Positions 12,801-56,119 of a stretch of 64,000 bases of DNA are shown here, piece after piece. Source of the DNA: Antedon mediterranea. Its lineage: Eukaryota > Animalia > Echinodermata. The notes below the pieces were generated by a model. That model saw only the letters and a program-made list of their open reading frames with translations. It was not told where the DNA came from and did no database searches. The stretch's first letter is position 1, and the number at the start of each line of letters is the position of its first letter. The position numbers and the translations under genes were made by a program. The stretch is taken from positions 15,447,045 to 15,511,044 of the forward strand of contig NC_092680.1 in assembly GCF_964355755.1 (NCBI RefSeq), given 5' to 3'.

Positions 12801-12843
12801 GAGATATGAAGAAGATAAACTGAAACTAGTGACAGTAAATTGA
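843..12843 (+). CDS. TBK1: TBK1/IKKepsilon-family Ser/Thr kinase, 16 coding exons, ~783 aa
   Basis: Phase-compatible GT-AG exons: 843-947 ([16 protein letters not shown]-loop), 1560-1830 ([14 protein letters not shown]), 3301-3485 ([20 protein letters not shown]), 4159-4316 ([16 protein letters not shown]), 4712-4825, 5154-5533 (ubiquitin-like domain), 6296-6354, 6502-6593, 7368-7593, 10030-10133, 10660-10776 ([17 protein letters not shown]1 scaffold signature), 11206-11307, 11459-11555, 11810-11941, 12546-12637, 12726-12843 (TGA). Total 2352 nt, in frame. Confidence 0.93.
1052..1071. promoter_or_regulatory. Candidate NF-kB site (GGGAATTCCC) with adjacent AP-1-like TGACTAA, first coding intron of TBK1
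   Basis: Perfect palindromic kB consensus at 1061-1070, with ATGACTAAT immediately upstream. Motif match only. Confidence 0.4.
4366..4570. mobile_element. MITE, PIF/Harbinger (Tourist)-like, same family as 37696-37874
   Basis: Degenerate TIRs (..CCACTATAGCGACGCAACGCAACG / CGTTACGTTGCATCGCTAGTGAGAACCAAGCT) with TAA/TTA flanks. Confidence 0.6.
7822..8254 (+). mobile_element. 5'-truncated LINE 3' end (L2/CR1-group) in a TBK1 intron
   Basis: ORF ends [50 protein letters not shown], the typical L2-clade C-terminus, followed by a short 3' UTR and a (TTA)n tail. Confidence 0.85.
8516..9932 (-). mobile_element. Non-autonomous Helitron (~1.4 kb) in a TBK1 intron
   Basis: On the minus strand it starts TCTATATATAAA (9932), ends with a terminal hairpin plus CTAG (+ strand: CTAGATGGTACGC-TCGCTTCGCTC-GCGTACCATCTAG, 8516-8552), and sits between A and T. 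Confidence 0.7.
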
Positions 12844-14059: not shown

Positions 14060-15520
14060 TTGAAATTCATTAGTATAGTATACGATTTTGTATACACCAA
14101 TGGTACCATTGAAATTTCATAATTTTTACGTAGTTGAATTTGACGACCAGTTTTAGGAGAAATGGGTCAAATGTGGTTTGTAGTTAATTATTTTCATTTA
14201 TTTCAACAATTTACAAAATTAAGATTAATGTTCGACGTCGTCACCATCGCCATATTCGTCATGGTCATCATCATTATGATTATCTAACCCTTTTCTTTAT
14301 GTGAAATCCTCAGAAACACAGTAGTTGGATTGCAAATAAGCGACTTGTGGAGTGAACTGTTGAAATATGAAATAAAAAGCGACCCTCAGATTTAACCAAA
14401 TAACTTAAAAAACAATAATACAATTATCCAATCAATATCGACAATAAAAAGATAAACACAAATACTTATTATTTATATTATTTATTTTTCACACAAAAAC
14501 AGTAACAATGCTCTGAGTATAATGTGACAGCAGTTAGTTTATCTTGTTTTAAAAACCAACAATTAATTACTCCCTCTTAATGAAAATTAATGAAATTATA
14601 GAAAATCGGACACGTGGAAGCGAGATTCACGATCATTTGAATTATGATGAACTTTATTCTGTAAGTTGCCCCAGAGTAGCCCAAAAAGAGAGTCACACGG
14701 CAAATTCCTTTACATTGTAACTTACCCTTTGGGATTTGAGAGTATCCTGTAAGTTGCCTCAGACACTAGTAGCCCAACAATTTCCAATTCCGACCCCTAC
14801 AACATTTAATAACTCGAAAACTAGATTAAATACAAATATCTATGATCTTGGCCTATATATCATATAATATCGAACGCTTTATTAGAAATATCAGTGAGAT
14901 CAATAGAAGATAATATTGAGCCTCTTCTTTCAGTGTTAGTAATGAAACAATTGTAAATATCTATCAAAATGATTGTCATTATTTTTTTGCTGATAAAAGG
15001 CTCGATTTAAATTTTTTCAGCAATTGTAGGTAAAGAAACAAGTCTAAAGGCCTAGTGGACCACCATTGGTATGTAATCCAAAAATAATAATTAATTGTTA
15101 ATATTAACAAACAATAATTGTTCAGTTTTGTTTTGGGTTTTTGTGTTACAATTTCTTATCAGTCACATCTTTAAATAACATTTTGAAATATAATACGGAG
15201 TGGTACCATATTTATCAGATGACTAAATATAGATAACATAAATTATAACTTTAATTGTGGTGTTTCTATTCAACTTCTGCTTTTTATTTCCGTGACATAT
15301 CAACATTATCCACCATATACTCACTGATCTTTATATGGAAAGACAGGTTGAACTACTTACTACTGAATGGCAAAAGCAATGATTTAACATACAGAATTTT
15401 GCAAAATGTTAAGAAGTTCATCTTGTTCCCTTGGGATTTCTGCTACACGTTAATTTAACCAAATATTACTCTTCGTCGTCAATTTGAAAGACCATTATTT
15501 GGCCCATGCAAAACATTCTT
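14060..15520. repeat. Relic third copy of the BRICHOS/RNase T2 segment, BRICHOS gene deleted
   Basis: 14280-14650 aligns by eye to 32154-32850 and 44820-45110. The sequence then jumps to match 37510-38740 and 48220-49150. Confidence 0.75.
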
Positions 15521-18500
15521 GGTAAAAAAAAACTATAACCTTGTTCCAAACAAAAAGAACAATGAACAAAGAAATTAGGATATAATAAACAAAAGTAACC
15601 TTTGCAATGGACAAACCGTCAAAATAATAACAATATCACTCCTCAAACAAAGAACTACCATCACTATTTTTTTTAAATACAAATTCTCTACTAATTATGT
15701 ATAACACAGGCCAAAACGAAAACCCCGCCAAAATAACAATAACAAACCCCTTCCCTAACAAAGAATGACCTTTCACTAATTAAAATGGGTATTTAAAAAT
15801 AAATGTTAACTTCTGAAAATAGCCGAAACCTAGCAAGTAAGTACGACAACTGGTTTAAAAAAAAGATAAATGACATTCTTTTTGGGTTTGGAATACTCCT
15901 GCCCTGGGGGTATAACATTCCTTTCGGGTCTGAAGTACCCCATCTTCTACTCCCATTTCTTTTGTCTGAAATAAATATTTTTATTGGTTTTTTTCTATAG
16001 AAGTGAATAAATTTATTGCAATTGCAAAATGGCCTATTTAAAGTCTGATTTTAGTGGTCCTATTTTTTTCTTGTTTTTGATTATTTTTTAAGATAAGAAT
16101 AAATAACGATGATAATGATCGAGCAGAACCGCTAATATTTACACATCTATATCTAAATCAGGGTTTTTACAAACACGGTTGCTATAAACAGACGACATTC
16201 TACAAAAAAAAGACCATTCTTACAGATATTTACACGTGAAAATTGTTCATTCTTCATCGTCATCGTCGTTATGTTTATTGGTTATCCGCAACGAAGTTGC
16301 AGGATAACCTCTTGTGATTGTACGAAATCATCATCATCATTGGTTATCCGCAACGAAGTTGCAGGATAACCTCTTGTGATTGTACGAAATCATCATCATT
16401 GGTTATCCGCAACGAAGTTGCAGGATAACCTCTTGTGATTGTACGAAATCATTCTGTATGATTTTTGTGTAACGCTTTTCTCTAAAACTCGCAAACATAA
16501 CATTTCGGTAACTATCTTAACATATTGACATTTACGTAACGTCGTCAAGCGAAGCTTTTCATGACGTTTACAATTGCGCAACGTGACTTACGCGCGATTT
16601 AATGATTTTGTCGTATTTAACATAGCTCGACAACCAAATAACATTTCAACTTTAAACTTTGCAAAAGTTTAATTTATATCATGCGCTAACTTTCTGTTGA
16701 AAAAAAATTCCGTGTTTTACACAAAGTTACGCGCGCACGCGCATTTAAAATTTCAAAATGCGCAAAATTAATTTCTAATCAACTTTCTACGTGTTTCATG
16801 TCGTTTTAAGCATGTCAAAAATTCCCACGCGTGCGCACATTTTTACGTGTGCGGTGCGCACGTAGCATTGAAAACGTATTTTTTTCGCGTGATTGATGTT
16901 TTTCCAGCCTTTTCTAGTAATTTTACCAAATTTTAAACTATTTCGACTTAAAGATACGTCATACGAGCACGTCGAATTGGACAATTTGCGCGCGTTTTTT
17001 ATGAAAAGGTTAAAAAATTCGTTTAAAATATGCCTATTTTTAAACAGTTGTAATTTCTAAACTAGACGGTCAAATTTTTGTGGATGACATATTCTAGAAG
17101 TAGATGAGTTGTAGATATCGGATCAGGTATTAATATGGCTAACCGAACATTGTGACGTCATCGTATGGCCACGCGAATATAAAATTTAGGATTTTTGTAT
17201 CTTTCGTCATAGCTCATCACATTGAATAGAGCGCATCTCCACTTATCCGTTTTCCATTTTCACCCCGATTTTGATATTGTCTAGGTCAATCAACTATCTT
17301 TCGCATGAGTTAAAAATATTTTAATTTTTTTGACGTCATCATGCCTAAAAATTTAAATCACGTGTGGCATCAATTTCATCTTTACAGTAAATTTTAATCT
17401 GTTATAGCTCGTAAAAATAAAATGTGATAATCACGATTAAAACTTTTTCTGGAAGCTATTGGATTGTAGGTACGAAATTATGTAAAAATGTTGCCAATCG
17501 GATGTTGTGACGTCATCATATGGCCAGTTAAATAAAAAAGGTCGTATTTTCATCTTTTGCGTCATAATTCATTACATTTAAAAGAGCGCGCATCAATATT
17601 TCACGTATTCAAATTTCTCCTACACGCTAATACGTTGTTGCTGAGATAATTTCCTTTCGGAATTGCTACCTTCGCGTTTCATTTTAAAACCGTCAACATG
17701 TTAAAAATTGCAATAAATAGCGGGTCCCGTAATTTCACCTATTCTACACTGTATGTGATATGGATACAGATTATACTGTGTATACTATATATGAATTTAA
17801 ATAATAAAATTCAGCAATAACAACATATCATATTCTTCAGTTCAGGTCATAATGCCAACGTGAACACTTCCTTTTGTCCTCAACCTATCCCCTTAATGTT
17901 AATGTTGCACCACTTGCGCGGCGGATAACCAAACTCGTCAAAGTGACGAGTTACATGTCTAGTTGGTTATCCGCAACGAAGTTGCAGGATAACCTCTTGT
18001 GATTGTACGAAATCAACCTGTATGATTTTTGTGTAACGCTTTTCTCTAAAACTCGCAAACGTAACATTTCGGTAACTATCTTAACATATTGACATTTACG
18101 TAACGTCGTCAAGCGAAGCTTTTCATGACGTTTACAATTGCGCAACGTGACTTACGCGCGATTTAACGATTTTGTCGTATTTAACATAGCTCAACAACCA
18201 AATAACATTTCAACTTGAAACTTTGCAAAAGTTTAATTTATATCATGCGCTAACTTTCTGTTGAAAAAAAATTGCGTGTTTTACACAAAGTTACGCGCGC
18301 ACGCGCATTTAAAATTTCAAAATGCGCAAAATTAATTTATAATCAACTTTCTACGCGTTTCATGTCGTTTTAAGCATGTCAAAAATTCCCACGCGTGCGC
18401 ACATTTTTAAGTGTGCGGTGCGCACGTAGCATTGAAAACGTATTTTTTTCGCGTGATTTATGTTTTTCCAGCCTTTTCTAGTAATTTTACCAAATTTTAA

Positions 18501-21500
18501 ACAATTTCGACTTAAAGATACGTCATACGAGCACGTCGAATTGGACAATTTGCGCGCGTTTTTTAAGAAAAGGTTAAAAAATTCGTTTAAAATATGCCTT
18601 TTTTTAAACAGTCGTAATTTCTAAACTAGACGGTCAACTTTTTGTGGATGACATATTCTGGAAGTAGATGAGTTGTAGATATCGGATCAGGTATTAATAT
18701 GGCTAACCGGACATTGTGACGTCATCGTATGGCCACGCGAATATAAAATTTAGGATTTTTGTATCTTTCGTCATAGCTCATCACATTTAATAGAGCGCAT
18801 CTCCACTTATCCGTTTTCTATTTTCACCCCGATTTTGATATTGTGTAAGGTCAATCAACTATCTTTCGCATGAGTTAAAAATATTTTAATTTTTTTGACG
18901 TCATCATGCCTAAAAATTTAAATCACGTGTGGAATCAATTTTATCTTTACAGTAAATTTTAATCTGTTATAGCTCGTAAGAATAAAATGTGATAATCACG
19001 ATTAAAACTTTTTCTGGAAGCTATTGGATTGTAGATACGAAATTATGTAAAAATGTTGCCAATCGGATGTTGTGACGTCATCATATGGCCAGTTAAATGA
19101 AAATGGTCGTATTTTCATCTTTTGCGTCATAATTCATTACATTTAAACGAGCGCGCATCAATATTTCACGTATTCAAATTTCTTTTACACGCTAATACGT
19201 TGTTGCTGAGATAATTTCCTTTCGGAATTGCTACCTTCGCGTTTCATTTTAAAACCGTCAAGATGTTAAAAATTGCAATAAATAGCGGGTCCCGTAATTT
19301 CACCTATTCTATGTATGTCACTGTATGTGATATGGATACAGATTATACTGTGTATACTATATATGAATTTAAATAATAAAATTCAGCAATAACAACATAT
19401 CATATTCTTCAGTTCAGGTCATAATGCCAACGTGAACACTTCCTTTTGTCCTCAACCTATCCCCTTAATGTTAATGTTGCACCACTTGCGCGGCGGATAA
19501 CCAAACTCGTCAAAGTGACGAGTTACATGTCTAGTCTTTTTCTTAATCTTCTTTCTTTCTGTATGATTTTTGTGTAACGCTTTTCTCTAAAACTTGCAAA
19601 CATAACATTTTGTTAACCATGTTAACATTTTGACATTTATGTAACGTCGTCAAGCGAAGCTTTTCATGATGTTTACAATTGCGCAACGTGACGTACGCGC
19701 GACTTAACGATTTTCTCGTATTTAACATATGTCGAAAACCAAATAACATTTTAAAGTGAAACTTTGCAAAAGTTTAATTTATATCATGCGCTAACTTTCT
19801 GTTGAAAAAAAATTGCGTGTTTTACACAAAGTTACGCGCGCACGCGCATTTAAATTTTCAAAATGCGCAAAATTAATTTATAATCAACTTTCTACGCGTT
19901 TCATGTCGTTTTAAGCATGTCAACAATTCCCACGTGTGCGCACATTTTTACGTGTGCGGTGTGCACGTAGCATTGAAAACATATTTTTTTCTCGTGATTT
20001 ATGTTTTTACAGCCTTTTCTAGTAATTTTACCAAATTTTAAACAATTTCGACTTAAAGATACGTCATACGAGTACGTCGAATTGGACAATTTGCGCGCGT
20101 TTTTTATGAAAAGGTTAAAAAATTCGTTTAAAATATGCCTTTTTTTAAACAGTCGTAATTTCTAAACTAGACGGTCAACTTTTTGTGGACGACATATTCT
20201 GTAAGTAGATGAGTTGTAGATATCGGATCAGGTATTAATATGGCTAACCGGACATTGTGACGTCATCGTATGGTCACGCGAATATAAAATTTAGGATTTT
20301 TGTATCTTTCGTCATAGCTCATCACATTGAATAGAGCGCATCTCCACTTATTCGTTTTCCATTTTCACCCCGATTTTGATATTGTCTAGGTCAATCAACT
20401 ATCTTTCGCATGAGTTAAAAATATTTTAATTTTTTTGACGTCATCATGCCTAAAAATTTAAATCACGTGTGGCATCAATTTCATCTTTACAGTAAATTTT
20501 AATCTGTTATAGCTCGTAAGAATAAAATGTGATAATCACGATTAAAACTTTTTCTGGAAGCTATTGGATTGTAGATATGAAATTATGTAAAAATGTTGCC
20601 AATCGGATGTTGTGACGTCATCATATGGCCAGTTAAATAAAAAAGGTCGTATTTTCATCTTTTTCGTCATAATTCATTACATTTAAAAGAGCGCGCATCA
20701 ATATTTAACGTATTCAAATTTCTTCTACACGCTAATACGTTGTTGCTGAGATAATTTGCTTTCGGAATTGCTAACTTCGCTTTTCATTTTAAAACCATCA
20801 ACATGTTAAAAATTGCAATAAATAGTGGGTCCCGTAATTTCACCTATTCTACACTGTATGTGATATGGATACAGATTATACTGTGTATACTATATATGAA
20901 TTTAAATAATAAAATTCAGCAATAACAACAGATCATATTCTTCAGTTCAGGTCATAATGCCAACGTGAACACTTCCTTTTGTCCTCAACCTATCCCCTTA
21001 ATGTTAATGTTGCACCACTTGCGCGGCGGATAACCAAACTCGTCAAAGTGACGAGTTACATGTCTAGTTGGTTATCCGCAACGAAGTTGCAGGATAACCT
21101 CTTGTGATTGTACGAAATCATCATCTTTTTATTTTTGGTTATATTTTTGGTTATCCGCAACGAAGTTGCAGGATAACCTCTTGTGATTGTACGAAATCAT
21201 TCTGTATGATTTTTGTGTAACGCTTTTCTCTAAAACTCGCAAACATAACATTTCGGTAACTATCTTAACATATTGACATTTACGTAACGTCGTCAAGCGA
21301 AGCTTTTCATGACGTTTACAATTGCGCAACGTGACTTACGCGCGATTTAACGATTTTGTCGTATTTAACATAGCTCGACAACCAAATAAAATTTCAACTT
21401 GAAACTTTGCAAAAGTTTAATTTATATCATGCGCTAACTTTCTGTTGAAAAAAAATTCCGTGTTTTACACAAAGTTACGCGCGCACGCGCATTTAAAATT

Positions 21501-22782
21501 TCAAAATGCGCAAAATTAATTTCTAATCAACTTTCTACGCGTTTCATGTCGTTTTAAGCATGTCAAAAATTCCCAAGCGTGCGCACATTTTTACGTGTGC
21601 GGTGCGCACGTAGCATTGAAAACGTATTTTTTCGCGTGATTTATGTTTTTCCAGCCTTTTCTAGTAATTTTACCAAATTTTAAACAATTTCGACTTAAAG
21701 ATACGTCATACGAGCACGTCGAATTGGACAATTTACGCGCGTTTTTTATGAAAAGGTTAAAAAATTCGTTTAAAATATGCCTTTTTTTAAACAGTCGTAA
21801 TTTCTAAACTAGACGGTCAAATTTTTGTGGATGACATATTCTAGAAGTAGATGAGTTGTAGATATCGGATCAGGTATTAATATGGCTAACCGGACATTGT
21901 GACGTCATCGTATGGCCACGCGAATATATAATTTAGGATTTTTGTATCTTTCGTCATAGCTCATCACATTGAATAGAGCGCATCTCCACTTATCCGTTTT
22001 CCATTTTCACCCCGATTTTGATATTATCTAGGTCAATCAACTATCTTTCGCATGAGTTAAAAATATTTTAATTTTTTTGACGTCATCATGCCTAAAAATT
22101 TAAATCACGTGTGGCATCAATTTCATCTTTACAGTAAATTTTAATCTGTTATAGCTCGTAAAAATAAAATGTGATAATCACGATTAAAACTTTTTCTGGA
22201 AGCTATTGGATTGTAGATACGAAATTATGTAAAAATGTTGCCAATCGGATGTTGTGATTTCATCATATGGCCAGTTAAATAAAAAAGGTCGTATTTTCAT
22301 CTTTTGCGTCATAATTGATTACATTTAAAAGAGCGCGCATCAATATTTCACGTATTCAAATTTCTCCTACACGCTAATACGTTGTTGCTGAGATAATTTC
22401 CTTTCGGAATTGCTACCTTCGCGTTTCATTTTAAAACCGTCAACATGTTAAAAATTGCAATAAATAGCGGGTCCCGTAATTTCACCTATTCTACACTGTA
22501 TGTGATATGGATACCGATTATACTGTGTATACTATATATGAATTTAAATAATAAAATTCAGCAATAACAACATATCATATTCTTCAGTTCAGGTCATAAT
22601 GCCGACGTGAACACTTCCTTTTGTCCTCAACCTATCCCCTTAATATCCCACTTGCGCGGCGGATAACCAAACTCGTCAAAGTGACGAGTTACATGTCTAG
22701 TTGGTTATCCGCAACGAAGTTGCAGGATAACCTCTTGTGATTGTACGAAATCATCATCATCATCATCATCATCAACTTTTTA

Positions 22783-24374
22783 TTAGTTATCCGCACTCAG
22801 CGGATAACTCCTTGTAACTGTCCTGTTTCATCATCTTTTTTTTTTTTCTGTATTATTCTTTCTTTCTGTCATTTTTGTGCAGAGCATATCTCAAAAACGT
22901 GTAAAGTTAACATTTCATAACTTTGTCAACATATGGGTATTCACCTGAAGTTGTGCTTTTCTATTTTTGAATGACGTCAGAATTGCACAACATGACTTAC
23001 GCGCGTTTTAACGAATTTCGCGTATTTAACATATATCGAAAACCATATAACAATTTAAATTGAAACTTAACAAAAGTTTAAGTTATATCTTGCGCTAATT
23101 GACTGTGTAAAAAAAATGGCATGTTTCACACGAAGTTACGCGCGCACGCGCGTTTTAAATTTCAAAACGCGAAAAATCAATTTCTAATCCACTTTCTACG
23201 CGTTTCATGTCATTTTGAGCAGGTAAAAAATTCCCAAGCGCGCGCATTTTTTTACGCGCGCCGTGCGCACGTAGCGTTGAAAACAATTTTTTTCACGTAA
23301 TTTATGTTTTTCCAGCCTTTTGTAGTAATTTTACCAACTTTTAAACGATTTTGACTTAAAATTACGTCATACGTGCACGTCGAATTGGATAATTTACGTG
23401 GGTTTTTGATGAAAAAGTTAAAAAATTCGTTAAAATTTGTCAAATATATGCCTTTTTTTAAACAGTCGTAATTTCTAAACTGGACGGTCAACTTTTTGTG
23501 GATGACATATTCTTGAAGTTGATGAGGTGTAGATATCGGATCATGTAATAATATGGCTAAACGGACATTGTGACGTCATCGTATGGCCACGCGAATATAA
23601 AATATAGGATTTTTGTATCTTTCGTCATAGCTCATCACAGTTAATAGAGCGCATCTCTACTTATCCGTTTTCAATTTTCACCCCGATTTTGACATTGTCT
23701 AGGTCAATCACCTATCTTTCGCATGAGTTAAAAATATTTTAATTTTTATGACGCCATCATGTCTAAAAATGTAAATAACGTGGGTCACTTATTTTCATCT
23801 TTACAGTAAATTTCAATCTGTTATAGCTCGTCAGAATAAAAAGTGATAATCATGATCAAAACGTTTTATGGAAGCTATTGGATTGTAGATACGAATTCAT
23901 GTAAACATTTTGCCAATCAGATGTTGTGACGTCATCATATGGCCAGTTGAATATAAAAAGTCGTATTTTCATAATTTGCGTCATAGTTCATCACATTTAA
24001 AAGACCGCGTATCTATATTTGACGTATTCAAATTTCTTATACACGGTAATATGTTGTTGATGAGATCATTTGCTTTCAAAATTGCTATCTTAGTGTTTCA
24101 TTTTGATACCGCCGCCATGTTAAAAATAGGAATAAATGGGGGGTCCCGTAATTTCACCTATTCTACACTGTATGTAATACGCATACAGATTATACTGTTC
24201 ATACTGTATATGACACAAAATTGACAGAATTCAGCACTAACAGCATATGACATTCTTCAGTTCAGGTCATAATGCCATAATCTTTTTTCGTGCGCAAACT
24301 TTCAACGTATGACGTGCGCGGGGCGTTTTTCATGCGGATAACTAACTCGTCAAAGTGACGAGTTACATGTCTAG
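22783..24374 (+). mobile_element. Subfamily B element, copy 1
   Basis: Head TTAGTTATCCGCACTCAGCGGATAACT, tail GCGGATAACTAACTCGTCAAAGTGACGAGTTACATGTCTAG. The body is clearly diverged from subfamily A. Confidence 0.85.
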
Positions 24375-25898
24375 TTCTTCTTCTTTCTTTCTGTATGATT
24401 TTTGTGTAACGCTTTTCTCTGAAACTTGCAAACATAACATTTTGTTAACTATGTTAACATTTTGACATTTATGTAACGTCGTCAAGCGAAGCTTTTCATG
24501 ATGTTTACAATTGCGCAACGTGACGTACGCGCGATTTAACGATTTTCTCGTATTTAACATATGTCGAAAACCAAATAACATTTTAAAGTGAAACTTTGCA
24601 AAAGTTTAATTTATATCATGCGCTAACTTTCTGTTGAAAAAAAATTGCGTGTTTTACACAAAGTTACGCGCGCACGCGCATTTAAAATTTCAAAATGCGC
24701 GAAACTAATTTATAATCAACTTTCTACGCGTTTCATGTCGTTTTAAGCATGTCAAAAATTCCCACGCGTGCGCACATTTTTACGTGTGCGGTGCGCACGT
24801 AGCATTGAAAAGGTATTTTTTTCGAGTGATTTATGTTTTTCCAGCCTTTTCATGTAATTTTACCAAATTTTAAACAATTTCGACTTAAAGATACGTCATA
24901 CGAGCACGTCGAATTGGACAATTTGCGCGCGTTTTTTATGAAAAGGTTAACAAATTCGTTTAAAATATGCCTTTTTTTAAACAGTCGTAATTTCTAAACT
25001 AGACGGTCAAATTTTTGTGGATGGCATATTCTGGAAGTAGATGAGTTGTAGATATCGGATCAGGTATTAATATGGCTAACCGGACATTGTGACGTCATCG
25101 TATGGCCACGCGAATATAAAATTTAGGATTTTTGTATCTTTCGTCATAGCTCATCACATTGAATAGAGCGCATCTCCACTTATCCGTTTTCCATTTTCAC
25201 CCGGATTTTGATATTGTCTAGGTCAATCAACTATCTTTCGCATGAGTTAAAATATTTTAATTTTTTTGACGTCATCATGCCTAAAAATTTAAATCACGTG
25301 TGGCATCAATTTCATCTTTACAGTAAATTTTAATCTGTTATAGCTCGTAAGAATAAAATGTGATAATCACGATTAAAACTTTTTCTGGAAGCTATTGGAT
25401 TGTAGATACGAAATTATGTAAAAATGTTGCCAATCGGATGTTGTGACGTCATCATATGGCCAGTTAAATAAAAAAGGTCGTATTTCCATCTTTTGCGTCA
25501 TAATTCATTACATTTAAAAGAGCGCGCATCAATATTTCACGTATTCAAATTTCTTCTACACGCTAATACGTTGTTGCTGAGATAATTTCCTTTCGGAATT
25601 GCTACCTTCCCGTTTCATTTTAAAACCGTCAACATGTTAAAAATTGCAATAAATAGCGGGTCCCGTAATTTCACCTATTCTACACTGTATGTGATATGGA
25701 TACAGATTATACTGTGTATACTATATATGAATTTAAACAATAAAATTCAGCAATAACAACATATCATATTCTTCAGTTCAGGTCATAATGCCAACGTGAA
25801 CACTTCCTTTTGTCCTCAACCTATCCCCTTAATGTTAATGTTGCACCACTTGCGCGGCGGATAACCAAACTCGTCAAAGTGACGAGTTACATGTCTAG

Positions 25899-27497
25899 TT
25901 AGTTATCCGCACTCAGCGGATAACTCCTTGTAACTGTCCTGTTTCATCATCTTTTTTTTTTTTCTGTATTATTCTTTCTTTCTGTCATTTTTGTGCAGAG
26001 CATATCTCAAAAACGTGTAAAGTTAACATTTCATAACTTTGTCAACATATGGGTATTCACCTGAAGTTGTGCTTTTCTATTTTTGAATGACGTCAGAATT
26101 GCACAACATGACTTACGCGCGTTTTAACGAATTTCGCGTATTTAACATACATCGAAAACCATATAACAATTTAAATTGAAACTTAACGAAAGTTTAAGTT
26201 ATATCTTGCGCTAACTGACTGTGTAAAAAAAATGGCATGTTTTACACGAAGTTACGCGTGCACGCGCGTTTAAAATTTCAAAATGCGAAAAATCAATTTC
26301 TAATCTACTTTCTACGCGTTTCATGTCATTTTGAGCAGGTAAAAAATTCCCACGCGCGCGCATTTTTTTACGCGCGCCGTGCGCACGTAGCGTTGAAAAC
26401 AATTTTTTTCACGTGATTTATGTTTTTCCAGCCTTTTGTAGTAATTTTACCAACTTTTAAACGATTTTGACTTAAAATTACGTCATACTTGCACGTCGAA
26501 TTGGATAATTTACGTGGGTTTTTGATGAAAAAGTTAAAAAATTCGTTAAAATTTGTCAAAATTATGCCTTTTTTTAAACAGTTGTAATTTCTAAACTGGA
26601 CGGTCAAATTTTTGTGGATGACATATTCTTGAAGTTAATGAGGTGTAGATATCGGATCATGTAATAATATGGCTAACCGGACATTGTGACGTCATCGTAT
26701 GGCCACGCGAATATAAAATATAGGATTTTTGTATCTTTCGTCATAGCTCATCACATTTAATAGAGCGCATCTCTACTTATCCGTTTTCAATTTTCACCCC
26801 GATTTTGACATTGTCTAGGTCAATCACCTTTCTTTCGCATGAGTTAAAAATATTTTAATTTTTATGACGCCATCATGTCTAAAAATGTAAATAACGTGGG
26901 TCACTTATTTTCATCTTTACAGTAAATTTCAATCTGTTATAGCTCGTCAGAATAAAAAGTGATAATCATGATCAAAACGTTTTATGGAAGCTATTGGATT
27001 GTAGATACAAATTCATGTGAACATTTTGCCAATCAGATGTTATGACGTCATCATATGGCCAGTTGAATATAAAAAGTCGTATTTTCATAATTTGCGTCAT
27101 AGTTCATCACATTTAAAAGAGCGCGTATCTATATTTGACGTATTCAAATTTCTTCTACACGGTAATATGTTGTTGATGAGATCATTTGCTTCCAAAATTG
27201 CTATCTTAGTGTTTCATTTTGATACCGCCGCCATGTTAAAAATAGGAATAAATGGGGGGTCCCGTAATTTCACCTATTCTACACTGTATGTAATACGCAT
27301 ACAGATTATACTGTTTATACTGTATATACTATATGACACAAAATTGACAGAATTCAGCACTAACAGCATATGACATTCTTCAGTTCAGGTCATAATGCCA
27401 TAATCTTTTTTTGTGCGCAAAATTTCAACGTATGACGTGCGCGTGGCGTTTTTCGTGCGGATAACTAACTCGTCAAAGTGACGAGTTACATGTCTAG
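25899..27497 (+). mobile_element. Subfamily B element, copy 2
   Basis: Near-identical to 22783-24374. Confidence 0.85.
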
Positions 27498-30400
27498 TTC
27501 TTCTTTCTTTCTGTATGATTTTTGTGTAACGCTTTTCTCCAAAACTCGCAAACATAACATTTTGGTAACTATCTTAACATATTGACATTTACGTAACGTC
27601 GTCAAGCGAAGCTTTTCATGACGTTTACAATTGCGCAACGTGACTTACGCGCGATTTAACGATTTTGTCGTATTTAACATAGCTCAACAACCAAATAACA
27701 TTTCAACTTGAAACTTTGCAAAAGTTTAATTTATATCATGCGCTAACTTTCTGTTGAAAAAAAATTGCGTGTTATACACAAAGTTACGCGTGCACGCGCA
27801 TTTAAAATTTCAAAATGCGCAAAATTAATTTATAATCAACTTTCTACGCGTTTCATGTCGTTTTAAGCATGTCAAAAATTCCCACGCGTGCGCACATTTT
27901 TACGTGTGCGGTGCGCACGTAGAATTGAAAACGTAATTTTTTCGCGTGATTTATGTTTTTTCAGCCTTTTCTAGTAATTTTACCAAATTTTAAACAATTT
28001 TGACTTAAAGATACGTCATACGAGCACGTCGAATTGGCCAATTTGCGCGCGTTTTTTATGAAAAGGTTAAAAAATTCGTTTAAAATATGACTTTTTTTAA
28101 ACAGTCGTAATTTCTAAACTAGACGGTCAAATTTTTGTGGATGACATTTTCTAGAAGTAGATGAGTTGTAGATATCGGATCAGGTATTAATATGGCTAAC
28201 CGGACATTGTGACGTCATCGTATGGCCACGCGAATATAAAATTTAGGATTTTTGTATCTTTCGTCATAGCTCATCACATTGAATAGAGCGCATCTCCACT
28301 TATCCGTTTTCCATTTTCACCCCGATTTTGATATTGTCTAGGTCAATCAACTATCTTTCGCATGAGTTAAAAATATTTTAATTTTTTTGACGTCATCATG
28401 CCTAAAAATTTAAATCACGTGTGGCATCAATTTCATCTTTACAGTAAATTTTAATCTGTTATAGCTCGTAAGAATAAAATTTGATAATCACGATTAAAAC
28501 TTTTTCTGGAAGCTATTGGATTGTAGATACGAAATTATGTAAAAATGTTGCCAATCGGATGTTGTGACGTCATCATATGGCCAGTTAAATAAAAAAGGTC
28601 GTATTTTCATCTTTTGCGTCATAATTCATTACATTTAAAAGAGCGCGCATCAATATTTCACGTATTCAAATTTCTTCTACACGCTAATACGTTGTTGCTG
28701 AGATAATTTCCTTTCGGAATTGCTACCTTCCCGTTTCATTTTAAAACCGTCAACATGTTAAAAATTGCAATAAATAGCGGGTCCCGTAAGTTCACATATT
28801 CTACACTGTATGTGATATGGATACAGATTATACTGTGTATACTATATATGAATTTATATATAGATAAAATTCAGCAATAACAACATATCATATTCTTCAG
28901 TTCAGGTCATAATGCCAACGTGAACACTTCCTTTTGTCCTCAACCTATCCCCTTAATGTTAATGTTGCACCACTTGCGCGGCGGATAACCAAACTCGTCA
29001 AAGTGACGAGTTACATGTCTAGTCATCTTTTTATTGGTTATCCGCAACGAAGTTGCAGGATAACCTCTTGTGATTGTACGAAATCATCAACATCAACTTT
29101 TTATTTTTCTTCTTTCTTTCTGTATGATTTTTGTGTAACGCTTTTCTCTGAAACTTGCAAACATAACATTTTGTTAACTATGTTAACATTTTGACATTTA
29201 TGTAACGTCGTCAAGCGAAGCTTTTCATGATGTTTACAATTGCGCAATGTGACGTACGCGCGATTTAACGATTTTCTCGTATTTAACATATGTCGAAAAC
29301 CAAATAACATTTTAAAGTGAAACTTTGCAAAAGTTTAATTTATATCATGCGCTAACTTTCTGTTGAAAAAAAATTGCGTGTTTTACACAAAGTTACGCGC
29401 GCACGCGCATTTAAAATTTCAAAATGCGCAAAATTAATTTATAATCAACTTTCTACGTGTTTCATGTCGTTTTAAGCATGTCAAAAATTCCCACGCGTGC
29501 GCACATTTTTACGTGTGCGGTGCGCACGTAGCATTGAAAACGTATTTTTTTCGCGTGATTTATGTTTTTCCAGCCTTTTCATGTAATTTTACCAAATTTC
29601 TAACAATTTCGACTTAAAGATACGTCATACGAGCACGTCGAATTGGACAATTTGCGCGCGTTTTTTATGAAAAGGTTAAAAAATTCGTTTAAAATATGCC
29701 TTTTTTTAAACAGTCGTAATTTCTAAACTAGAAGGTCAACTTTTTGTGGATGGCATATTCTGGAAGTAGATGAGTTGTAGATATCGGATCAGGTATTAAT
29801 ATGGCTAACCGGACATTGTGACGTCATCGTATGGCCACGCGAATATAAAATTTAGGATTTTTGTATCTTTCGTCATAGCTCATCACATTGAATAGAGCGC
29901 ATCTCCTTTTATCCGTTTTCCATTTTCACCCCGATTTTGATATTGTCTAGGTCAATCAACTATCTTTCGCATGAGTGAAAAATATTTTAATTTTTATGAC
30001 GTCATCATGCCTAAAAATTGAAATCACGTGTGGCATCAATTTCATCTTTACAGTAAATTTTAATCTGTTATAGCTCGTAAGAATAAAATGTGATAATCAC
30101 GATTAAAACTTTTTCTGGAAGCTATTGGATTGTAGATACGAAATTATGTTAAAATGTTGCCAATCGGATGTTGTGACGTCATCATATGGCCAGTTAAATA
30201 AAAAAGGTCGTATTTTCATCTTTTGCGTCATAATTCATTACATTTAAAAGAGCGCACATCAATATTTCACGTATTCAAATTTCTTCTACACGCTAATACG
30301 TTGTTGCTGAGATAATTTCCTTTCGGAATTGCTACCTTCGCGTTTCATTTTAAAACCGTCAACATGTTAAAAATTGCAATAAATAGCGGGTCCCGTAATT

Positions 30401-32520
30401 TCACCTATTCTACACTGTATGTGATATGGATACAGATTATACTGTGTATACTATATATGAATTTAAATAATAAAATTCAGCAATAACAACATATCATATT
30501 CTTCAGTTCAGGTCATAATGCCAACGTGAACACTTCCTTTTGTCCTCAACCTATCCCCTTAATGTTAATGTTGCACCACTTGCGCTGCGGATAACCAAAC
30601 TCGTCAAAGTGACGAGTTACATGTCTAGTTCTTCTTCTTTCTTTCTGTATGATTTTTGTGTAACGCTTTTCTCTGAAACTTGCAAACATAACATTTTGTT
30701 AACTATGTTAACATTTTGACATTTATGTAACGTCGTCAAGCGAAGCTTTTCATGATGTTTACAATTGCGCAACGTGACGTACGCGCGATTTAACGATTTT
30801 CTCGTATTTAACATATGTCGAAAACCAAATAACATTTCAACTTGAAACTTTGCAAAAGTTTAATTTATATCATGCGCTAACTTTCTGTTGAAAAAAAATT
30901 GCGTGTTTTACACAAAGTTACGCGCGCACGCGCATTTAAAATTTCAAAATGCGCGAAATTAATTTATAATCAACTTTCTACGCGTTTCATGTCGTTTTAA
31001 GCATGTCAAAAATTCCCACGCGTGCGCACCTTTTTACGTGTGCGGTGCGCACGTAGCATTGAAAACGTATTTTTTTCGCGTGATTTATGTTTTTCCAGCC
31101 TTTTCATGTAATTTTACCAAATTTTTAACAATTTCGACTTAAAGATACGTCATACGAGCACGTCGAATTGGACAATTTGCGCGCGTTTTTTATGAAAAGG
31201 TTAAAAAATTCGTTTAAAATATGCCTTTTTTTAAACAGTCGTAATTTCTAAACTAGACGGTCAAATTTTTGTGGATGACATATTCTGGAAGTAGATGAGT
31301 TGTAGATATCGGATCAGGTATTAATATGGCTAACCGGACATTGTGACGTCATCGTATGGCCACGCGAATATAAAATTTAGGATTTTTGTATCTTTCGTCA
31401 TAGCTCATCACATTGAATAGAGCGCATCTCCACTTATCCGTTTTCCATTTTCATCCCGATTTTGATATTGTCTAGATCAATCAACTATCTTTCGCATGAG
31501 TTAAAAATATTTTAATTTTTTTGACGTCATCATGCCTAAAAATTTAAATCACGTATGGCATCAATTTCATCTTTACAGTAAATTTTAATCTGTTATAGCT
31601 CGTAAGAATAAAATGTGATAATCACGATTACAACTTTTTCTGGAAGCTATTGGATTGCAGATATGAAATTATGTAAAAATGTTGCCAATCGGATGTTGTG
31701 ACGTCATCATATGGCCAGTTAAATAAAAAAGGTCGTATTTTCATCTTTTGCGTCATAATTCATTACATTTAAAAGAGCGCGCATCAATATTTAACGTATT
31801 CAAATTTCTTCTACACGCTAATACGTTGTTGCTGAGATAATTTCCTTTCGGAATTGCTACCTTCGCGTTTCATTTTAAAACCGTCAACATGTTAAAAATT
31901 GCAATAAATAGCGGGTCCCGTAATTTCACCTATTCTACACTGTATGTGATATGGATACAGATTATACTGTGTATACTGTATATGAATTTAAATAATAAAA
32001 TTCAGCAATAACAACAGATCATATTCTTCAGTTCAGGTCATAATGCCAACGTGAACACTTCCTTTTGTCCTCAACCTATCCCCTTAATGTTAATGTTGCA
32101 CCACTTGCGCGGCGGATAACCAAACTCGTCAAAGTGACGAGTTACATGTCTAGTCTAACCTTTTCTTTGTGAAATCCTCAGAACACAGGAGTTGGTTGGC
32201 ACATAAGGGAGACTTGTGGTAGGAACTTGTGAAATATGCAATTACAAAGCGACCACACCCAGTCACAGGACCAGTAACATTAACGTCTTCATTCCTTCAA
32301 ATTTAACCAAGTAACTGATTATAAAAAGAATAAATTGGCCAAATCAATATCGACAAATAAAGATAAACACAAATATTTATTTATTTATAATACTGTATTT
32401 ATTTCTGCACCTAAACACATTAACAATGTTCTGAGTATAAGGTGACAGTAGTAGTTCATCTTGTTTTAAGAAACCAAGAATTCATTGTTTGCTTTATGAA
32501 TATAATTTTAATATATAGGC

Positions 32521-32553
<33 letters not shown>

Positions 32554-33602
32554 AATATTTAAAATAAGGATTATAAATTTGAACTCGTCGCCGTGACCAC
32601 TTCGCTTATCAACGATAATACGCACATACATATCCTATGAACTGAAGAAAACATATTATTTATACGCTACTGAATTGTGTTTTTAGTATTGACTTAACTA
32701 GGGTCAATACCAATCTATATTCTAATTTTCAAACAGGATGACCACATCAAAATAAAACATCAAGATATTAATATAAATATAATTACACGAGCAAGAATTT
32801 AGAGAAGAAAACGTAGAAGTGAGATTCACGCTCATTGAATAATGATGAATTGTAGAAATATACCTGCTCACCATCTAGTAAAATTACTATAGCAATGTTC
32901 CCTGCAATGCCAGACGGGCAATCTGTGAGAACGAAAGCCGCTATATCCCCATGTCTGTTCTGACTTCTTGTGCAGTCAAGAAAATGTATCCAATGTTTTT
33001 CTCTCTGCGAATTGTTTTCAGAGAACGTGCGAAAAAATTTGCGAATTGGTTGGACTAATTCGATACGAGAACATTTTTAAAAATAATTGTGAAAAAATGC
33101 ATTCTATCTATACTGGCATCAGCCAACAGTGACGCCTATGAGAAAAGGACTTATGAGGAAAGAGATGAAAAACCCACTTTTTAATACAGCTGACCATATG
33201 ATAATATTATTTCCAAAACTCACATTACTTACATAATTTAAGGATGTCGATTTAAAATGGGTAAAATGTAATAATTTAGAGGATTTAAACCTTAAAATCA
33301 TAAATAAATTGATTAATTTAATTGATTGATAAATTCATTATAGCATAGACTATTTTTCGAAGCTGATATTCTGGAATAATATGCTGTGAAAAAAATTTGT
33401 TTTCTGCAATCAAATTTAAACAATCTATAGTCAAAATGTTTACATGAATTTGTATCTACAATTCAACAGATTCCACTATAAGTTAAAAACATGAGGGTCA
33501 CCTTTTATAAATGCTATAACATAAGAAAAAAATATGAAACAAGACGATGGTTATCTGCATTAAATACGGATAAGCAATTAATATTAAACCATTGAAGTTT
33601 TT

Positions 33603-38008: not shown

Positions 38009-38165
38009 TAAGTTGCCTCAGACACTAAGTAGCCCAACATTTTCCGATTCCAACCCCTACAAGATTTATCACTCTAAAACTAGATTCAATAGGCTATCAA
38101 AACAATTTCTATGATTTATAGATCATAAATAATATCAAACTCTTTATTAGAAATATCAGTGAGAT

Positions 38166-41100: not shown

Positions 41101-41180
41101 ATATACAGAATGTTGCAAAAAGTTAAGAAGTTCATCTTTCTGCTACACGTTAATTTAACAAAATATTACTCTTCGTCGTA
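38166..41180. repeat. ~1.1-1.2-kb tandem triplication of the RNase T2 upstream region
   Basis: CAAGAGAAGAT..TTGAGC.TCTTCTTTCAGTGTTAGT at 38166, 39252 and 40466. The paralogue has a single copy (48530-49550). Confidence 0.85.
39470..39559 (+). mobile_element. ~90-bp mini Helentron/DINE-like insert (second copy at ~40682-40774)
   Basis: (GTCG)n microsatellite and a terminal hairpin GCCATGTATATGGC followed by CTTG. Absent at the homologous sites 15115, 38370 and 48750. Confidence 0.55.
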
Positions 41181-41191
41181 AAAAATCAGTT

Positions 41192-43713: not shown

Positions 43714-43765
43714 ATTCACCTGAAGAGTGTGACCAGTGGCCATACGAAACAAGCGTGTAGTGAAT
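43714..43765 (+). ncRNA. Minimal type I hammerhead ribozyme (Penelope-like element type)
   Basis: ATTCAC-CTGAAGA-GTGTGACC(AGT)GGCCATAC-GAAA-CAAGCGTG-TA-GTGAAT: 6-bp stem I, intact core and a GUA cleavage triplet. Confidence 0.75.
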
Positions 43766-43942
43766 AAATATGAAGTCACCTTAGTTCATCTCGTATCGTT
43801 TTTTTTTTTATTTAGCTCTACCTCAGTGTATCAAGCACTCTATCCAGGTGATCTGAATTATTTATATATACCATGTCCCGCATACCTGGCTCAGCCTATA
43901 TATTGTGCCAGTTCTGCGGTACATTTTATTTCGAAACCTGAG

Positions 43943-43985
43943 CTGCACTGACGAGATCTAATAAGATCGAAACAGTACTCTGCAG
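43943..43985 (+). ncRNA. Damaged hammerhead ribozyme, second family (copy at 51491-51533)
   Basis: CTGCA-CTGACGA-GATCT(AATA)AGATC-GAAA-CAGTAC-TC-TGCAG. Stem III is 2 nt shorter than in the 45314 copy. Confidence 0.55.
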
Positions 43986-44017
43986 ATTGGATATAGATAT
44001 ATATATATATACATATA

Positions 44018-44190
44018 TGGTCTAATGGTTAGGACATCTGCATATCAAGCAGGCGGTCCGAGTTCGAGTCTCGGTTGGGGAGACATTCTCACAGATTTCC
44101 TCATCTTTATCGTTTAAAATTAATTAATTAAATGTCATTATATCACCGGGCGGTTTAGAATTACTGTTCTTTGCCTGATTTGTTTTTATA
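44018..44190 (+). mobile_element. tRNA-derived SINE (copy at ~51566-51740; degenerate copy at ~53085-53230)
   Basis: A box TGGTCTAATGG and B box AGTTCGAGTC, followed by a non-tRNA tail. Confidence 0.65.
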
Positions 44191-45313
44191 TATATAATAC
44201 TGTATATATGAAATGTTGTAATTTAGTCGTGTAACTTTTAAATTAACTTTGAAGCTAAAACAGATTTTTATGTTTTCAATTGGGTGTGCTAGGACATCAC
44301 GGATAAGTTGCAACTCGTATGGCCATCGTTAAAATACAACGAAGAAAATATGTATTTCTGGTAAAGACATACTTTTAATTGTGCTTAATATTTGTTTTAT
44401 TTATGGATAATTCATAATATTCATGTTTTAATATTACAATGTGTATAGAGTTGTTATGTGTGTTTTTCATTTACGTGGTCTGTTTTAATTGTAAATGAAC
44501 AAGTAAATTAAAATGAAAAAATAAACAAAATAAAAATAAACAAATAGGGCCTATACTGTGAATTAGTCAAAACAAATTGTGTGTCGTCCGAACCTGTGAG
44601 CAATTCCACCCAGATATACTTATTCTATTTGTTGGTATACGCCATGGTATCATTGACATTCTATAATTTATTCTTGAATGTGACGACCAGTTAGAGAAGA
44701 AATAAATAAATATTTATTGTCTTATATTTCAACGATATACAAAATAAAACAAATGAAACTTGTTAGTCTCTAATATTGTCAAGGGTCACTTCTGGTCATC
44801 ATCCTCGTCACAATAATCATCATCTAGCCCTTTTCTTCGTGGGAATTCCTTCTAGGAAACACAGTTGTTGGCACTTAAGCATTATACTTGTAGAGGGAAC
44901 GGTGAATAATTCAATTACGGAGCGACCCAACGACCACATTCGGTAAAGAACCAAAATACAGAAACTTCTTAACTTAAACCAAAACTTTAAAATAAAAAAG
45001 TGAATACATTGGTCAACTCAATTTCGACAAGATACAAACTCACAATAAAATATCAACAACATTATTTATTTCTGCCAACAAAAACACGATGCTCTGATAA
45101 TGAGTATAATATATAATAATGCATGTTGTTTAGTAGAGTACTCTTCATTTCGAAACGGTGCATTTTTGTTGTGAATACTATTAGCATTTTGCAAAGCACG
45201 CTCGTTGAGCTTGTGCACTCTTTGTGTTCATAATCAGTGTACCATGTCCTGCATACCTGGCTCAGCCTATATATTGTGCCAGTTCTGCGGTACATTTCAT
45301 TTCGAAACATGGG

Positions 45314-55615: not shown

Positions 55616-55801
55616 CTATTCTATTAATTACTGTGTTGTAATTTGTAAATTTTGCTCGTTTCCTTTCTCTATATCATATTGATATGCTTTACACAGTAAA
55701 TAATTGGAAACGTATAGGCCTAAGGAAATGTTAACATTAATTTTAACACCAAACTTTCTTGGAAAGAATTAATATGTAGCATAAATATAAATGGTAACAC
55801 A

Positions 55802-56119
55802 ATGTATGTTAAGGCACGAGATAAAATGGCAAACGAAAATTGTTTAGTTTGTTACGATCAGCTTCTGACTGATCGATGGAAATGTGACCAATGTACGTTA
55901 GAAGCTCATATGACCTGCATTGTGCGATGGTGTAACACCTCGCAAACGTGCCCTCAATGTAGGTTATCAATCACTACTACTCCTTCTACCCCTACCACTC
56001 CTTCTACCCCTACCACTCCTTCTACCCCTACCACTCCTTCACGCTCATGGGGAGACGAAGAGATCTTGTTTGCAGAATCTAACAGAAGTTGGATCCGAAC
56101 ATTTGATTTCTATGTTTAA
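55802..56119 (+). CDS. Small intronless C4HC3 RING-variant protein with a (TPSTPT)n linker
   Basis: CLVC-x10-CDQC-x4-HMTCIVRW-x6-CPQCR, an 18-bp tandem repeat encoding TTPSTP, and a TATA-like TATAAA ~15 bp before the first ATG. Expression unknown; the start may be at 55826. Confidence 0.6.
   Translation: MYVKARDKMANENCLVCYDQLLTDRWKCDQCTLEAHMTCIVRWCNTSQTCPQCRLSITTTPSTPTTPSTPTTPSTPTTPSRSWGDEEILFAESNRSWIRTFDFYV

What the first reader, a model, noticed from the sequence alone, without database searches (positions are those of the whole stretch)
16278..32153. The 16-kb 'satellite' is a balanced nest of self-targeting Helentron-like elements
Seen: 8 A heads (16278, 16340, 16399, 17963, 21068, ~21147, 22701, 29034), 8 A tails, 2 B heads and 2 B tails. 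Heads stack up in places, and headless bodies follow the tails at 19535, 24375, 27498 and 30629. They parse as brackets: H1( H2( H3() H4() ) H5( H6() H7( B1() ) B2() ) H8() ). Removing the inner elements restores a continuous (TCA)n-TTTTTA-TTCTTCTTTCTTTCTGTATG linker like the uninterrupted one at 29082-29125. Nearly all insertions are at A|T within this ~40-bp linker behind the head, with no TSD. Inference: the array grew by repeated targeted insertion into its own 5' linker, not by rolling-circle concatemers or unequal crossover, which would give head-to-tail units.
Basis: partly seen in the sequence, partly recalled or inferred. Interest (0 to 1): 0.82.

Follow-up and report, generated by a model that had tools for sequence, protein, structure and literature searches.

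The report
Ten transposons nested inside themselves
A 16-kb repeat block in a feather-star genome is ten 1.6-kb non-coding transposon copies whose ends pair up like brackets four deep, likely because new copies of this rolling-circle-type family keep landing in a short repeat just behind the front end of older copies, a habit proposed before for fungal relatives.

Summary
There are 10 heads (8 A, 2 B) and 10 tails, and they parse as a balanced nest four deep. Nested pairing rebuilds the 5' linker best (4 of 120 pairings tie). An uninterrupted paralog at 14254-14601 confirms the outer ends with no duplication. All nine inner copies sit at five sites in the ~40-bp linker; none sits in the bodies. 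Neighbouring copies differ by 2-15%, so they are not one concatemer or a recent duplication. Contigs of public runs show tail-to-linker joints in 4 of 4 runs laid and linker-to-head joints in 2 of 4, so nesting is family-wide. Anatomy is HINE/HLE2 (Helentron-like). The host is a crinoid (TBK1 about 99% identical to Antedon). Corrections: one site is T|T; four joints are plain head-to-tail; one run assembles a closed head-to-tail monomer, so concatemers are not excluded elsewhere. No long reads and no RepHel partner were available. Self-insertion near 5' ends is published for Fusarium FoHeli. This scan noted two similar nests on other pieces of the same genome (unchecked). Verdict: new variant of a known kind.

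The parts
16278..32153 (+). H1, outermost element (long linker, subtype a2). Own pieces: 16278-16339, 29023-29033, 30629-32153. Hosts H2, H5 and H8 at two linker sites
   Evidence: outer ends confirmed by paralog
16340..21067 (+). H2 (long linker, a2). Own pieces 16340-16398 and 19535-21067. Hosts H3 and H4 at the end of its (TCA)n
16399..17962 (+). H3, uninterrupted short-linker copy (a1), 1564 bp
   Evidence: same short-linker joint in 4 of the 6 runs laid (X11, X12, X2, X1)
17963..19534 (+). H4, uninterrupted copy with a second short-linker variant (a1), head-to-tail behind H3
   Evidence: variant joint in run X11
21068..29022 (+). H5 (long linker, a1 body). Own pieces 21068-21146 and 27498-29022. 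Hosts H6, H7 and B2 at a T|T site
21130..21154 (+). 12-bp tandem duplication across the H5-linker/H6-head joint, likely slippage after insertion
   Evidence: the same joint without the duplication in run X1
21147..22700 (+). H6, uninterrupted short-linker copy (a1), closest relative H3
22701..25898 (+). H7 (long linker with (TCA)8, a2). Own pieces 22701-22782 and 24375-25898. Hosts B1
22783..24374 (+). B1, subfamily B copy (15% from A), deepest level
25899..27497 (+). B2, subfamily B copy, head-to-tail behind H7
29034..30628 (+). H8, the only uninterrupted long-linker A copy (reference unit, 1595 bp)
29036..29065 (+). 5' subTIR folded back on its inverted repeat (hairpin, z -6.4). The 50-bp head is identical in 8 of 8 A copies
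29084..29122 (+). Linker: (TCA)n, T-run, (TTC/TTTC)n. The landing zone, and the most pyrimidine-rich 40-mer of the unit
29758..30380 (+). Two degenerate internal repeats, period about 355 bp, 64% identical (central-repeat-like)
30587..30598 (+). 3' subTIR, reverse complement of the first 12 bases of the head
30599..30628 (+). 3' hairpin (z about -3) and CTAG end. The last 30 bp are identical in 10 of 10 copies
16249..16277 (+). Left part of the host repeat into which H1 inserted, a degenerate TCA/TCG-rich tract
32154..32520 (+). Right part of the host repeat
14254..14601 (+). Uninterrupted paralog of the outer target (empty site), 71% identical over 403 columns, no gap at the join
44796..45131 (+). 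Second uninterrupted paralog of the outer target, 65% identical

Best explanation
The block is a balanced nest of ten non-coding Helentron-like (HINE/HLE2) copies that likely grew by about ten separate insertions, each new copy likely landing in the pyrimidine-rich (TCA)n/T-run linker that lies 50-90 bases inside the front end of an older copy. Shown: the bracket structure, the termini, five linker sites and none in the bodies, clean outer ends, and copies that differ from one another. Inferred: a RepHel transposase from an unseen autonomous partner peels off a donor copy elsewhere in the genome and joins it at an N|T step (mostly A|T) with no duplication. Inferred: the enzyme prefers a top strand rich in TCA/TTC/T-runs, and the element carries the best such site right behind its own head, so it is its own preferred target. 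Inferred: insertion recreates the same left context plus the head's first T, so a later copy can land at the same step and make a head-to-tail joint without any concatemer. Short-linker copies lack the landing zone and would be dead ends. Target choice by sequence is favoured (about 60%) over tethering to the resident head (about 30%).
For: Balanced parse with 10 heads, 10 tails, and B heads closing with B tails. Nested pairing is the optimum, 4 of 120 permutations; H5's left half has three more bases and its partner three fewer, matching H8's intact linker end. All 5 internal sites fall in the linker, which holds 4 of 338 A|T steps of a unit (both strands), 1 of 8 TCA|TC and 1 of 6 TTTA|T[TC] sites (motif classes chosen after seeing the data). 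Neighbours are independent copies: H3/H4 differ at 29 of 1497 columns and carry different short linkers, H2/H5 at 54 of 1497, H6/H7 at 45 of 1486, H7/B2 at 232 of 1486; H3 groups with H6 (96/92 support); the longest identical tract between any two copies is 300 bp. The outer site has two empty paralogs with no gap at the join. It has no resident head, yet ranks in the top 0.24% of 10,736 flank A|T steps for TC[AGT] trimers and the top 3.8% for pyrimidines (post hoc, n=1). Public runs: tail-to-linker joints in 4 of 4 runs laid (X11, X12, X1, X3) and linker-to-head joints in 2 of 4 (X11, X1), including linker variants absent from this window; in low-depth X1 and X3 these joints have 17-27% of the depth of the adjacent end (depth is only a rough guide). 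Hosts: 4 of 5 long-linker A copies against 0 of 5 others, Fisher p=0.048. Published analogues: FoHeli self-insertion near the 5' end (PMC5148889) and double insertion at preferred sites (PMC5932611).
Against: No RepHel partner was found or could be sought. Private substitutions do not follow nesting depth: outermost H1 has 7, H2 20, H5 14. Run X2 assembles one 1594-bp contig that reads as a closed 1564-bp head-to-tail monomer, and X4 holds a head-to-tail joint, so pure tandem or circular forms may exist in the family. The permutation test has only 5 sites (p=0.033). Long- versus short-linker A copies alone is not significant (4 of 5 vs 0 of 3, p=0.14). The outer site is not unusually similar to the linker sites by ungapped identity (18 of 43; 36% of flank sites match as well). 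A second pyrimidine-rich tract in the body (32 of 40) is never hit, which a purely compositional rule does not explain.
Confidence: 0.82

Rival explanations
1. Same nest, but the site is chosen by tethering: RepHel binds the 5' hairpin of a resident copy and delivers incoming copies to the nearest T-rich step behind it.
For: All 5 internal sites lie 59-82 bases from a head. The other 7 of 8 TCA|TC sites and a second pyrimidine-rich tract in the body are never used. All copies have one orientation.
Against: The outer insertion and two single-copy-depth contigs with a T-run plus A before a head (X11 record 1, X12 record 20) show the same kind of site where no resident head is in view. Short-linker and B copies have intact heads yet host nothing (0 of 5). 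One orientation is also expected from a strand-specific target.
Confidence: 0.3
2. Mixed origin: the five linker joints are insertions, but the four head-to-tail joints come from rolling-circle concatemers or from a circle recombining into a resident copy.
For: Closed head-to-tail monomer contig in X2 and head-to-tail joint in X4. Circles with joined ends are reported for FoHeli1 (PMC5148889). The first ~250 bp of the body separates subtypes a1 and a2 while the rest does not, so copies have exchanged sequence.
Against: The joined neighbours differ by 1.9, 3.6, 3.0 and 15.6% and are not nearest relatives. No A copy carries a B-type tract (at most 7 of 216 B-diagnostic columns, scattered), as a crossover between H7 and B2 would leave.
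Confidence: 0.15
3. Parts of the nest were built elsewhere and moved here as composite elements (outer head to inner or outer tail), as in the FoHeli multiple-5'-terminus model.
For: Multi-head FoHelis transpose as units (PMC5148889, section 10). Nest joints are multi-copy in the runs. The outermost copy is not the most diverged.
Against: Stopping at the first terminator would leave surplus heads; here heads equal tails and every host has its own body. Moving a whole sub-nest needs read-through of inner terminators.
Confidence: 0.12
4. A tandem satellite expanded by unequal crossover, with heads duplicated or lost by slippage.
For: The first three heads look like a 59-bp tandem repeat. B1+body followed by B2+body looks like a repeated block. 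One slippage duplication exists at 21130-21154.
Against: It predicts neither equal counts nor linker halves that rejoin in nested order. The two B+body blocks differ by 2.1% and 2.7% and their bodies are of different subtype. No two units are closer than 1.4%.
Confidence: 0.04
5. Misassembly of dispersed copies into one block.
For: The family is very abundant (summed depth of the order of a million against about 300 for single-copy-like contigs in X11). No read spans the block.
Against: Units are distinguishable at 1.4-15%. The two flanks rejoin into one repeat with empty paralogs. The joint classes exist in independent runs. An assembler has no reason to balance brackets.
Confidence: 0.05

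Closest known systems
HINE / DINE-1 non-autonomous Helentrons (Thomas et al. 2014, PMC4067079; Yang and Barbash 2008, PMC2374699; oyster Cg_HINE, PMC7492417; passages read)
   Same: No coding capacity; 12-bp subTIRs, 5' inverted repeat, microsatellite after it, internal repeats, 3' stem-loop; T-rich target, no TSD, ambiguous terminal T.
   Different: Ends in CTAG and mostly uses A|T rather than T|T. In the passages read, the microsatellite is described as a structural part, not as a landing site, and no multi-level self-nests are described.
FoHeli1/2 (Fusarium Helitron2) self-insertion and multiple 5' termini (Chellapan et al. 2016, PMC5148889: passages plus sections 6 and 10; PMC13342296: passages)
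   Same: Hairpins at both ends, 12-bp asymmetric inverted repeat, insertion next to a TNAT-type site, stacked 5' ends 31-85 nt long explained by self-insertion, up to five 5' termini in one copy.
   Different: There, several 5' ends share one 3' end and nesting is inferred, with one full nested case. Here every head keeps its own body and tail, ten copies, four levels, two subfamilies, in an animal. Their supplements (Table S6, Figs S11-S13) were not read and may hold deeper nests.
proto-Helentron of Phytophthora (PMC4067079 passage; revisited in PMC11417382 passage)
   Same: 5'-TT start, CTAG end, A|T insertion, no TSD.
   Different: A 14-kb autonomous element with another layout of hairpin and repeats. 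No relation by sequence was tested.
Tandem TE dimers by double insertion (McGurk and Barbash 2018, PMC5932611, passages read)
   Same: Insertion-site preference, not concatemers, makes tandem copies that can seed satellites.
   Different: Their dimers keep a TSD between copies at a host site; here there is no TSD and the preferred site lies inside the element itself.
Rolling-circle tandem arrays of truncated plant Helitrons (Xiong et al. 2016, seen only as summarised in PMC12628747)
   Same: Arrays of Helitron copies with stacked 5' ends.
   Different: Those have many 5' ends and a single 3' end from one template; this array is balanced and its copies are independent.

Membership tests
HINE / non-autonomous HLE2 (Helentron) | 11-17 bp subterminal inverted repeats, 5' copy near the end, 3' copy about 30-60 bp from the end | tested here: met
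   12-bp perfect repeat in A and in B, each with its own variant; 3' copy ends 30 bp from the end
HINE / non-autonomous HLE2 (Helentron) | [quoted passage not shown] | tested here: met
   Hairpins with z -6.4 in A and B heads, 0 of 200 shuffles as stable
HINE / non-autonomous HLE2 (Helentron) | 3' stem-loop after the 3' subTIR | tested here: met
   9-10 bp stem, z -3.0 and -2.8; 4 and 2 of 200 shuffles as stable
HINE / non-autonomous HLE2 (Helentron) | Microsatellite after the 5' block; internal repeats; no ORF | tested here: met
   (TCA)n/(TTC)n linker; ~355-bp internal repeat; the 3 listed ORFs lying inside copies have no Pfam match; no Rfam match in 25899-30628
HINE / non-autonomous HLE2 (Helentron) | No target-site duplication | tested here: met
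   Outer site continuous in an empty paralog; not testable inside (TCA)n
HINE / non-autonomous HLE2 (Helentron) | Insertion between T and T in T-rich DNA | tested here: inconclusive
   T-rich, yes. With the end T assigned to the element the 6 sites read T|T in 3 and T|C in 3; with TT..CTAG ends they read A|T in 5 and T|T in 1
HINE / non-autonomous HLE2 (Helentron) | Autonomous partner with the same termini encoding an HLE2-clade RepHel (with or without endonuclease) | not testable with these tools
   No genome held; two metagenome pattern scans gave 0 hits and 1 unrelated 18-bp match
Canonical Helitron (HLE1) | 5' TC start and no terminal inverted repeats | tested here: not met
   Starts TT and has subTIRs
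Canonical Helitron (HLE1) | 3' hairpin plus CTRR end, A|T insertion | tested here: met
   CTAG in 10 of 10; A|T in 5 of 6 sites
Classical satellite DNA | Head-to-tail monomers homogenised within the array | tested here: not met
   Only 4 of 10 tails meet a head; neighbours are not nearest relatives
MITE (cut-and-paste) | Terminal inverted repeats with a fixed TSD | tested here: not met
   Repeats are asymmetric and subterminal; no TSD at the outer site

The most novel reading that the evidence does not exclude
The 5' microsatellite that HINE/DINE-1 elements carry is a built-in landing pad: the family encodes its own preferred target, a fifth to a quarter of ends genome-wide sit in self-nests, satellite-like blocks grow by last-in-first-out nesting rather than by tandem amplification, and short-linker subfamilies are variants that have escaped being landed on.
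Probability: 0.3. Interest if true: 0.72.

Novelty: new variant of a known kind. Interest (0 to 1): 0.5.

Why it matters
Target choice by Helitron2/Helentron elements is known only as 'T-rich, TT'. A balanced nest records the sites and the order of about ten insertions, and turns the Fusarium self-insertion proposal into something countable in an animal genome. It offers a route from transposon to satellite-like block besides concatemers, unequal crossover and double insertion at host sites, and it would be misread as a satellite by repeat annotation. It also gives a testable role for the microsatellite that DINE-1 and oyster HINEs keep at the same position.

Tried and rejected
Metagenome pattern scans: 0 hits for subTIR plus hairpin; 1 hit for the tail, an 18-bp chance match in unrelated DNA. 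Pfam on 11 ORFs (11 of the 22 listed; the TBK1 exons and some short frames were left out): no RepHel or helicase. Rfam: nothing. Private substitutions as a clock for nesting order: no trend. Ungapped identity of the outer site to linker sites: unremarkable. An inverted repeat in the left flank (16103-16119/16256-16272) was considered as a host MITE and dropped as complementary microsatellite-like tracts. Both read-laying runs used stretches inside the array, so the unique flank joints were not checked against reads. No head-to-tail joint was listed for X11, X12, X1 or X3; contigs may simply break there, so this is not counted either way. Look-ups of earlier findings by words and by sequence gave nothing.
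Full report
OBSERVATION. A motif scan of both strands finds 8 A heads, 2 B heads and 10 tails between 16278 and 32153, all on the + strand and none elsewhere in the 64 kb. Treating heads as opening and tails as closing brackets gives H1(H2(H3,H4),H5(H6,H7(B1),B2),H8). It closes at 32153, reaches depth 4, and pairs B heads with B-type tails. Removing inner copies leaves ten units of 1554-1606 bp. The 50-bp A head is identical in 8 of 8 copies and the last 30 bp in 10 of 10. Bodies differ by 1.5-3.8% among A copies, 2.1% between B1 and B2, and about 15% between A and B.

DOES THE NESTING MEAN ANYTHING? I paired the 5 left linker halves with the 5 right halves in all 120 ways and scored each against the intact H8 linker, ignoring the number of TCA units. 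The nested pairing has the lowest total edit distance (10), tied by 4 of 120; pairing in order of appearance scores 27. One detail is telling: H5's left half runs three bases further into the T-run, and the half that closes H5 is three bases shorter than its two counterparts. The outer ends are confirmed independently. The two flanks rejoin into one interspersed repeat with empty paralogs at 14254-14601 (71%, no gap at the join) and 44796-45131 (65%), so nothing was duplicated or lost.

JUNCTIONS. All 10 tails end CTAG and are followed by T. Five heads follow A, one follows T, four follow a tail. So there are six target sites, one outer and five in linkers, five A|T and one T|T. The T|T joint carries a 12-bp duplication; run X1 holds the same joint without it. 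Because the element starts with T and is always followed by T, the sites can equally be read as T|T in three cases and T|C in three. The linker holds 4 of the 338 A|T steps of a unit, and even for narrow motifs only 1 of 8 or 1 of 6 sites, yet it took all five internal sites (motif classes were chosen after the fact). Four of 5 long-linker A copies are hosts against 0 of 5 short-linker or B copies (p=0.048; p=0.14 for A copies alone).

NOT ONE CONCATEMER, NOT A RECENT DUPLICATION. The four head-to-tail pairs differ at 29 of 1497, 54 of 1497, 45 of 1486 and 232 of 1486 columns. H3's nearest relative is H6, not its neighbour H4, and no A copy carries a B tract. The tree groups H3 with H6 (96/92) and splits A loosely into two subtypes; the longest identical tract is 300 bp. 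The subtype signal is confined to the first ~250 bp of the body, so copies have exchanged sequence at some time. Against a simple clock, private substitutions do not follow depth (H1 7, H2 20, H5 14).

OUTSIDE EVIDENCE. No genome is held. Fourteen public runs hold part of 29034-33500, four of them 70-83% of sampled words. I laid 6 of the 14, all as contigs. The family is abundant: summed depth is of the order of a million in X11 against about 300 for single-copy-like contigs (the tool warns that depth is not a copy number). On the junction stretch 28930-29180, tail-to-linker joints appear in 4 of 4 runs (summed depth about 11,200 in X11 and 4,500 in X12) and linker-to-head joints in 2 of 4, with variants not present in this window. 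In the low-depth runs X1 and X3, from another study, they have 17-27% of the depth of the adjacent end. Both short linkers are multi-copy variants (depth 21,115 and 6,818 in X11). Against an exclusive reading, X2 yields one 1594-bp contig whose pieces read as a closed head-to-tail 1564-bp monomer, and X4 has a head-to-tail joint.

WHAT IT IS. The host is a crinoid: the gene at 843-12840 matches a TBK1-like protein named from Antedon mediterranea at 99%. The unit has 12-bp subTIRs that differ in step between A and B, a strong 5' hairpin (z -6.4), a microsatellite, a degenerate 355-bp internal repeat and a 3' hairpin (z about -3). No coding or RNA-family match was found. This is the HINE/DINE-1 layout (PMC4067079, PMC2374699, PMC7492417, PMC11417382; passages), with a CTAG end and A|T bias as in proto-Helentron. 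It fails HLE1 on the 5' end. The autonomous partner, the one defining feature left, could not be sought.

MECHANISM. Most likely a RepHel in trans copies donors from elsewhere and joins them at an N|T step in a pyrimidine-rich top strand, and the element's own linker is the best such site. The outer target supports a sequence rule: it has no resident head but is a TCA/TCG tract in the top 0.24% of 10,736 flank A|T steps by trimer count (one site, post hoc; by ungapped identity it is unremarkable). Each insertion recreates the left context plus a T, so later copies can stack at the same step and give head-to-tail joints. Tethering to the resident head hairpin is the main alternative for site choice. 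These steps are inferred; the anatomy, sites and independence of copies are shown.

WHAT IS KNOWN. Chellapan et al. 2016 (PMC5148889; passages and sections 6 and 10) report FoHeli copies with repeated 31-85 nt 5' ends, one nested copy and a self-insertion model. PMC13342296 (passages) counts up to five 5' termini. McGurk and Barbash (PMC5932611; passages) show tandem TEs from double insertion. A review (PMC12628747; passages) summarises plant Helitron arrays with many 5' and one 3' end, and shuffled Helitron loci in oyster. A lepidopteran Helitron-like family disrupting (GAAA)n was seen only as a title in a reference list. PMC3630058 (passages) had no self-nests in what I read. Eight library searches turned up no balanced multi-level self-nest of this class and nothing on crinoid Helentrons. 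Subscription papers, Repbase, Dfam and the Chellapan supplements were not seen. This scan holds two unchecked notes of similar nests on other pieces of the same genome; my reading was recorded before seeing them and they are not counted as support.

VERDICT. Real, well supported, and a new variant of a known kind. Interest 0.5. The bolder case, that the HINE microsatellite is in general a self-landing pad, has about 0.3 probability and would merit about 0.72.

Noticed in passing
window 843-12840 (+): Multi-exon TBK1-like kinase gene; the clean exon matches are 95-100% identical to a protein named from Antedon mediterranea. The nest starts about 3.4 kb after its last coding exon.
   Followed up: yes
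window 33577-33000 and 32610-32570 (-): An older, diverged relative of the family: a third head type with a similar hairpin and T-rich linker, preceded by A, body remnants at 72-78%, and a tail-like subTIR plus hairpin without CTAG. The two ends may not belong to one copy.
   Followed up: partly
window 16278-32153: Each copy carries 2-3 TGACGTCA palindromes, 29 in the nest against 1 in the 48 kb of flanks. That this is the CRE/ATF site is recalled; no regulatory effect was tested.
   Followed up: no
run X3 laid on window 28930-29180: A tail followed by a different linker with (TTCC)n and a body-like start, suggesting insertion into the linker of a further subfamily (one contig).
   Followed up: no
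run X2 laid on window 28990-30670: Only 3 records were laid; one is a 1594-bp contig that reads as a closed short-linker monomer (1564 + 30 overlap), depth 7. It could be a tandem array, a circle, or collapse of the commonest path at low depth.
   Followed up: partly
window 14087-14601, 16249-16277 with 32154-32520, 44632-45131: An unclassified interspersed repeat with a degenerate TCA tract; one of its three copies received the nest.
   Followed up: partly
window 42205-44575 and 49754-52123; 38009-41182; 14695-15525; 47232-49160: Other repeat families: a 2.4-kb pair at 95.8%, and partly tandem copies of about 1.2-1.6 kb at 80-88%. Not examined for nesting.
   Followed up: no
window 55724-56116 (+): Open frame with a weak RING finger match (PF13639, E 5.7e-05, below the curated cut-off) followed by an 18-bp repeat.
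   Followed up: no
window 59941-60384 (+) and 7765-8157 (+): A frame with a kinase-like glycine-rich loop (ULK3-like by recall) and an intronic frame resembling the end of a LINE ORF2 (recalled motif). Neither had a Pfam match.
   Followed up: no
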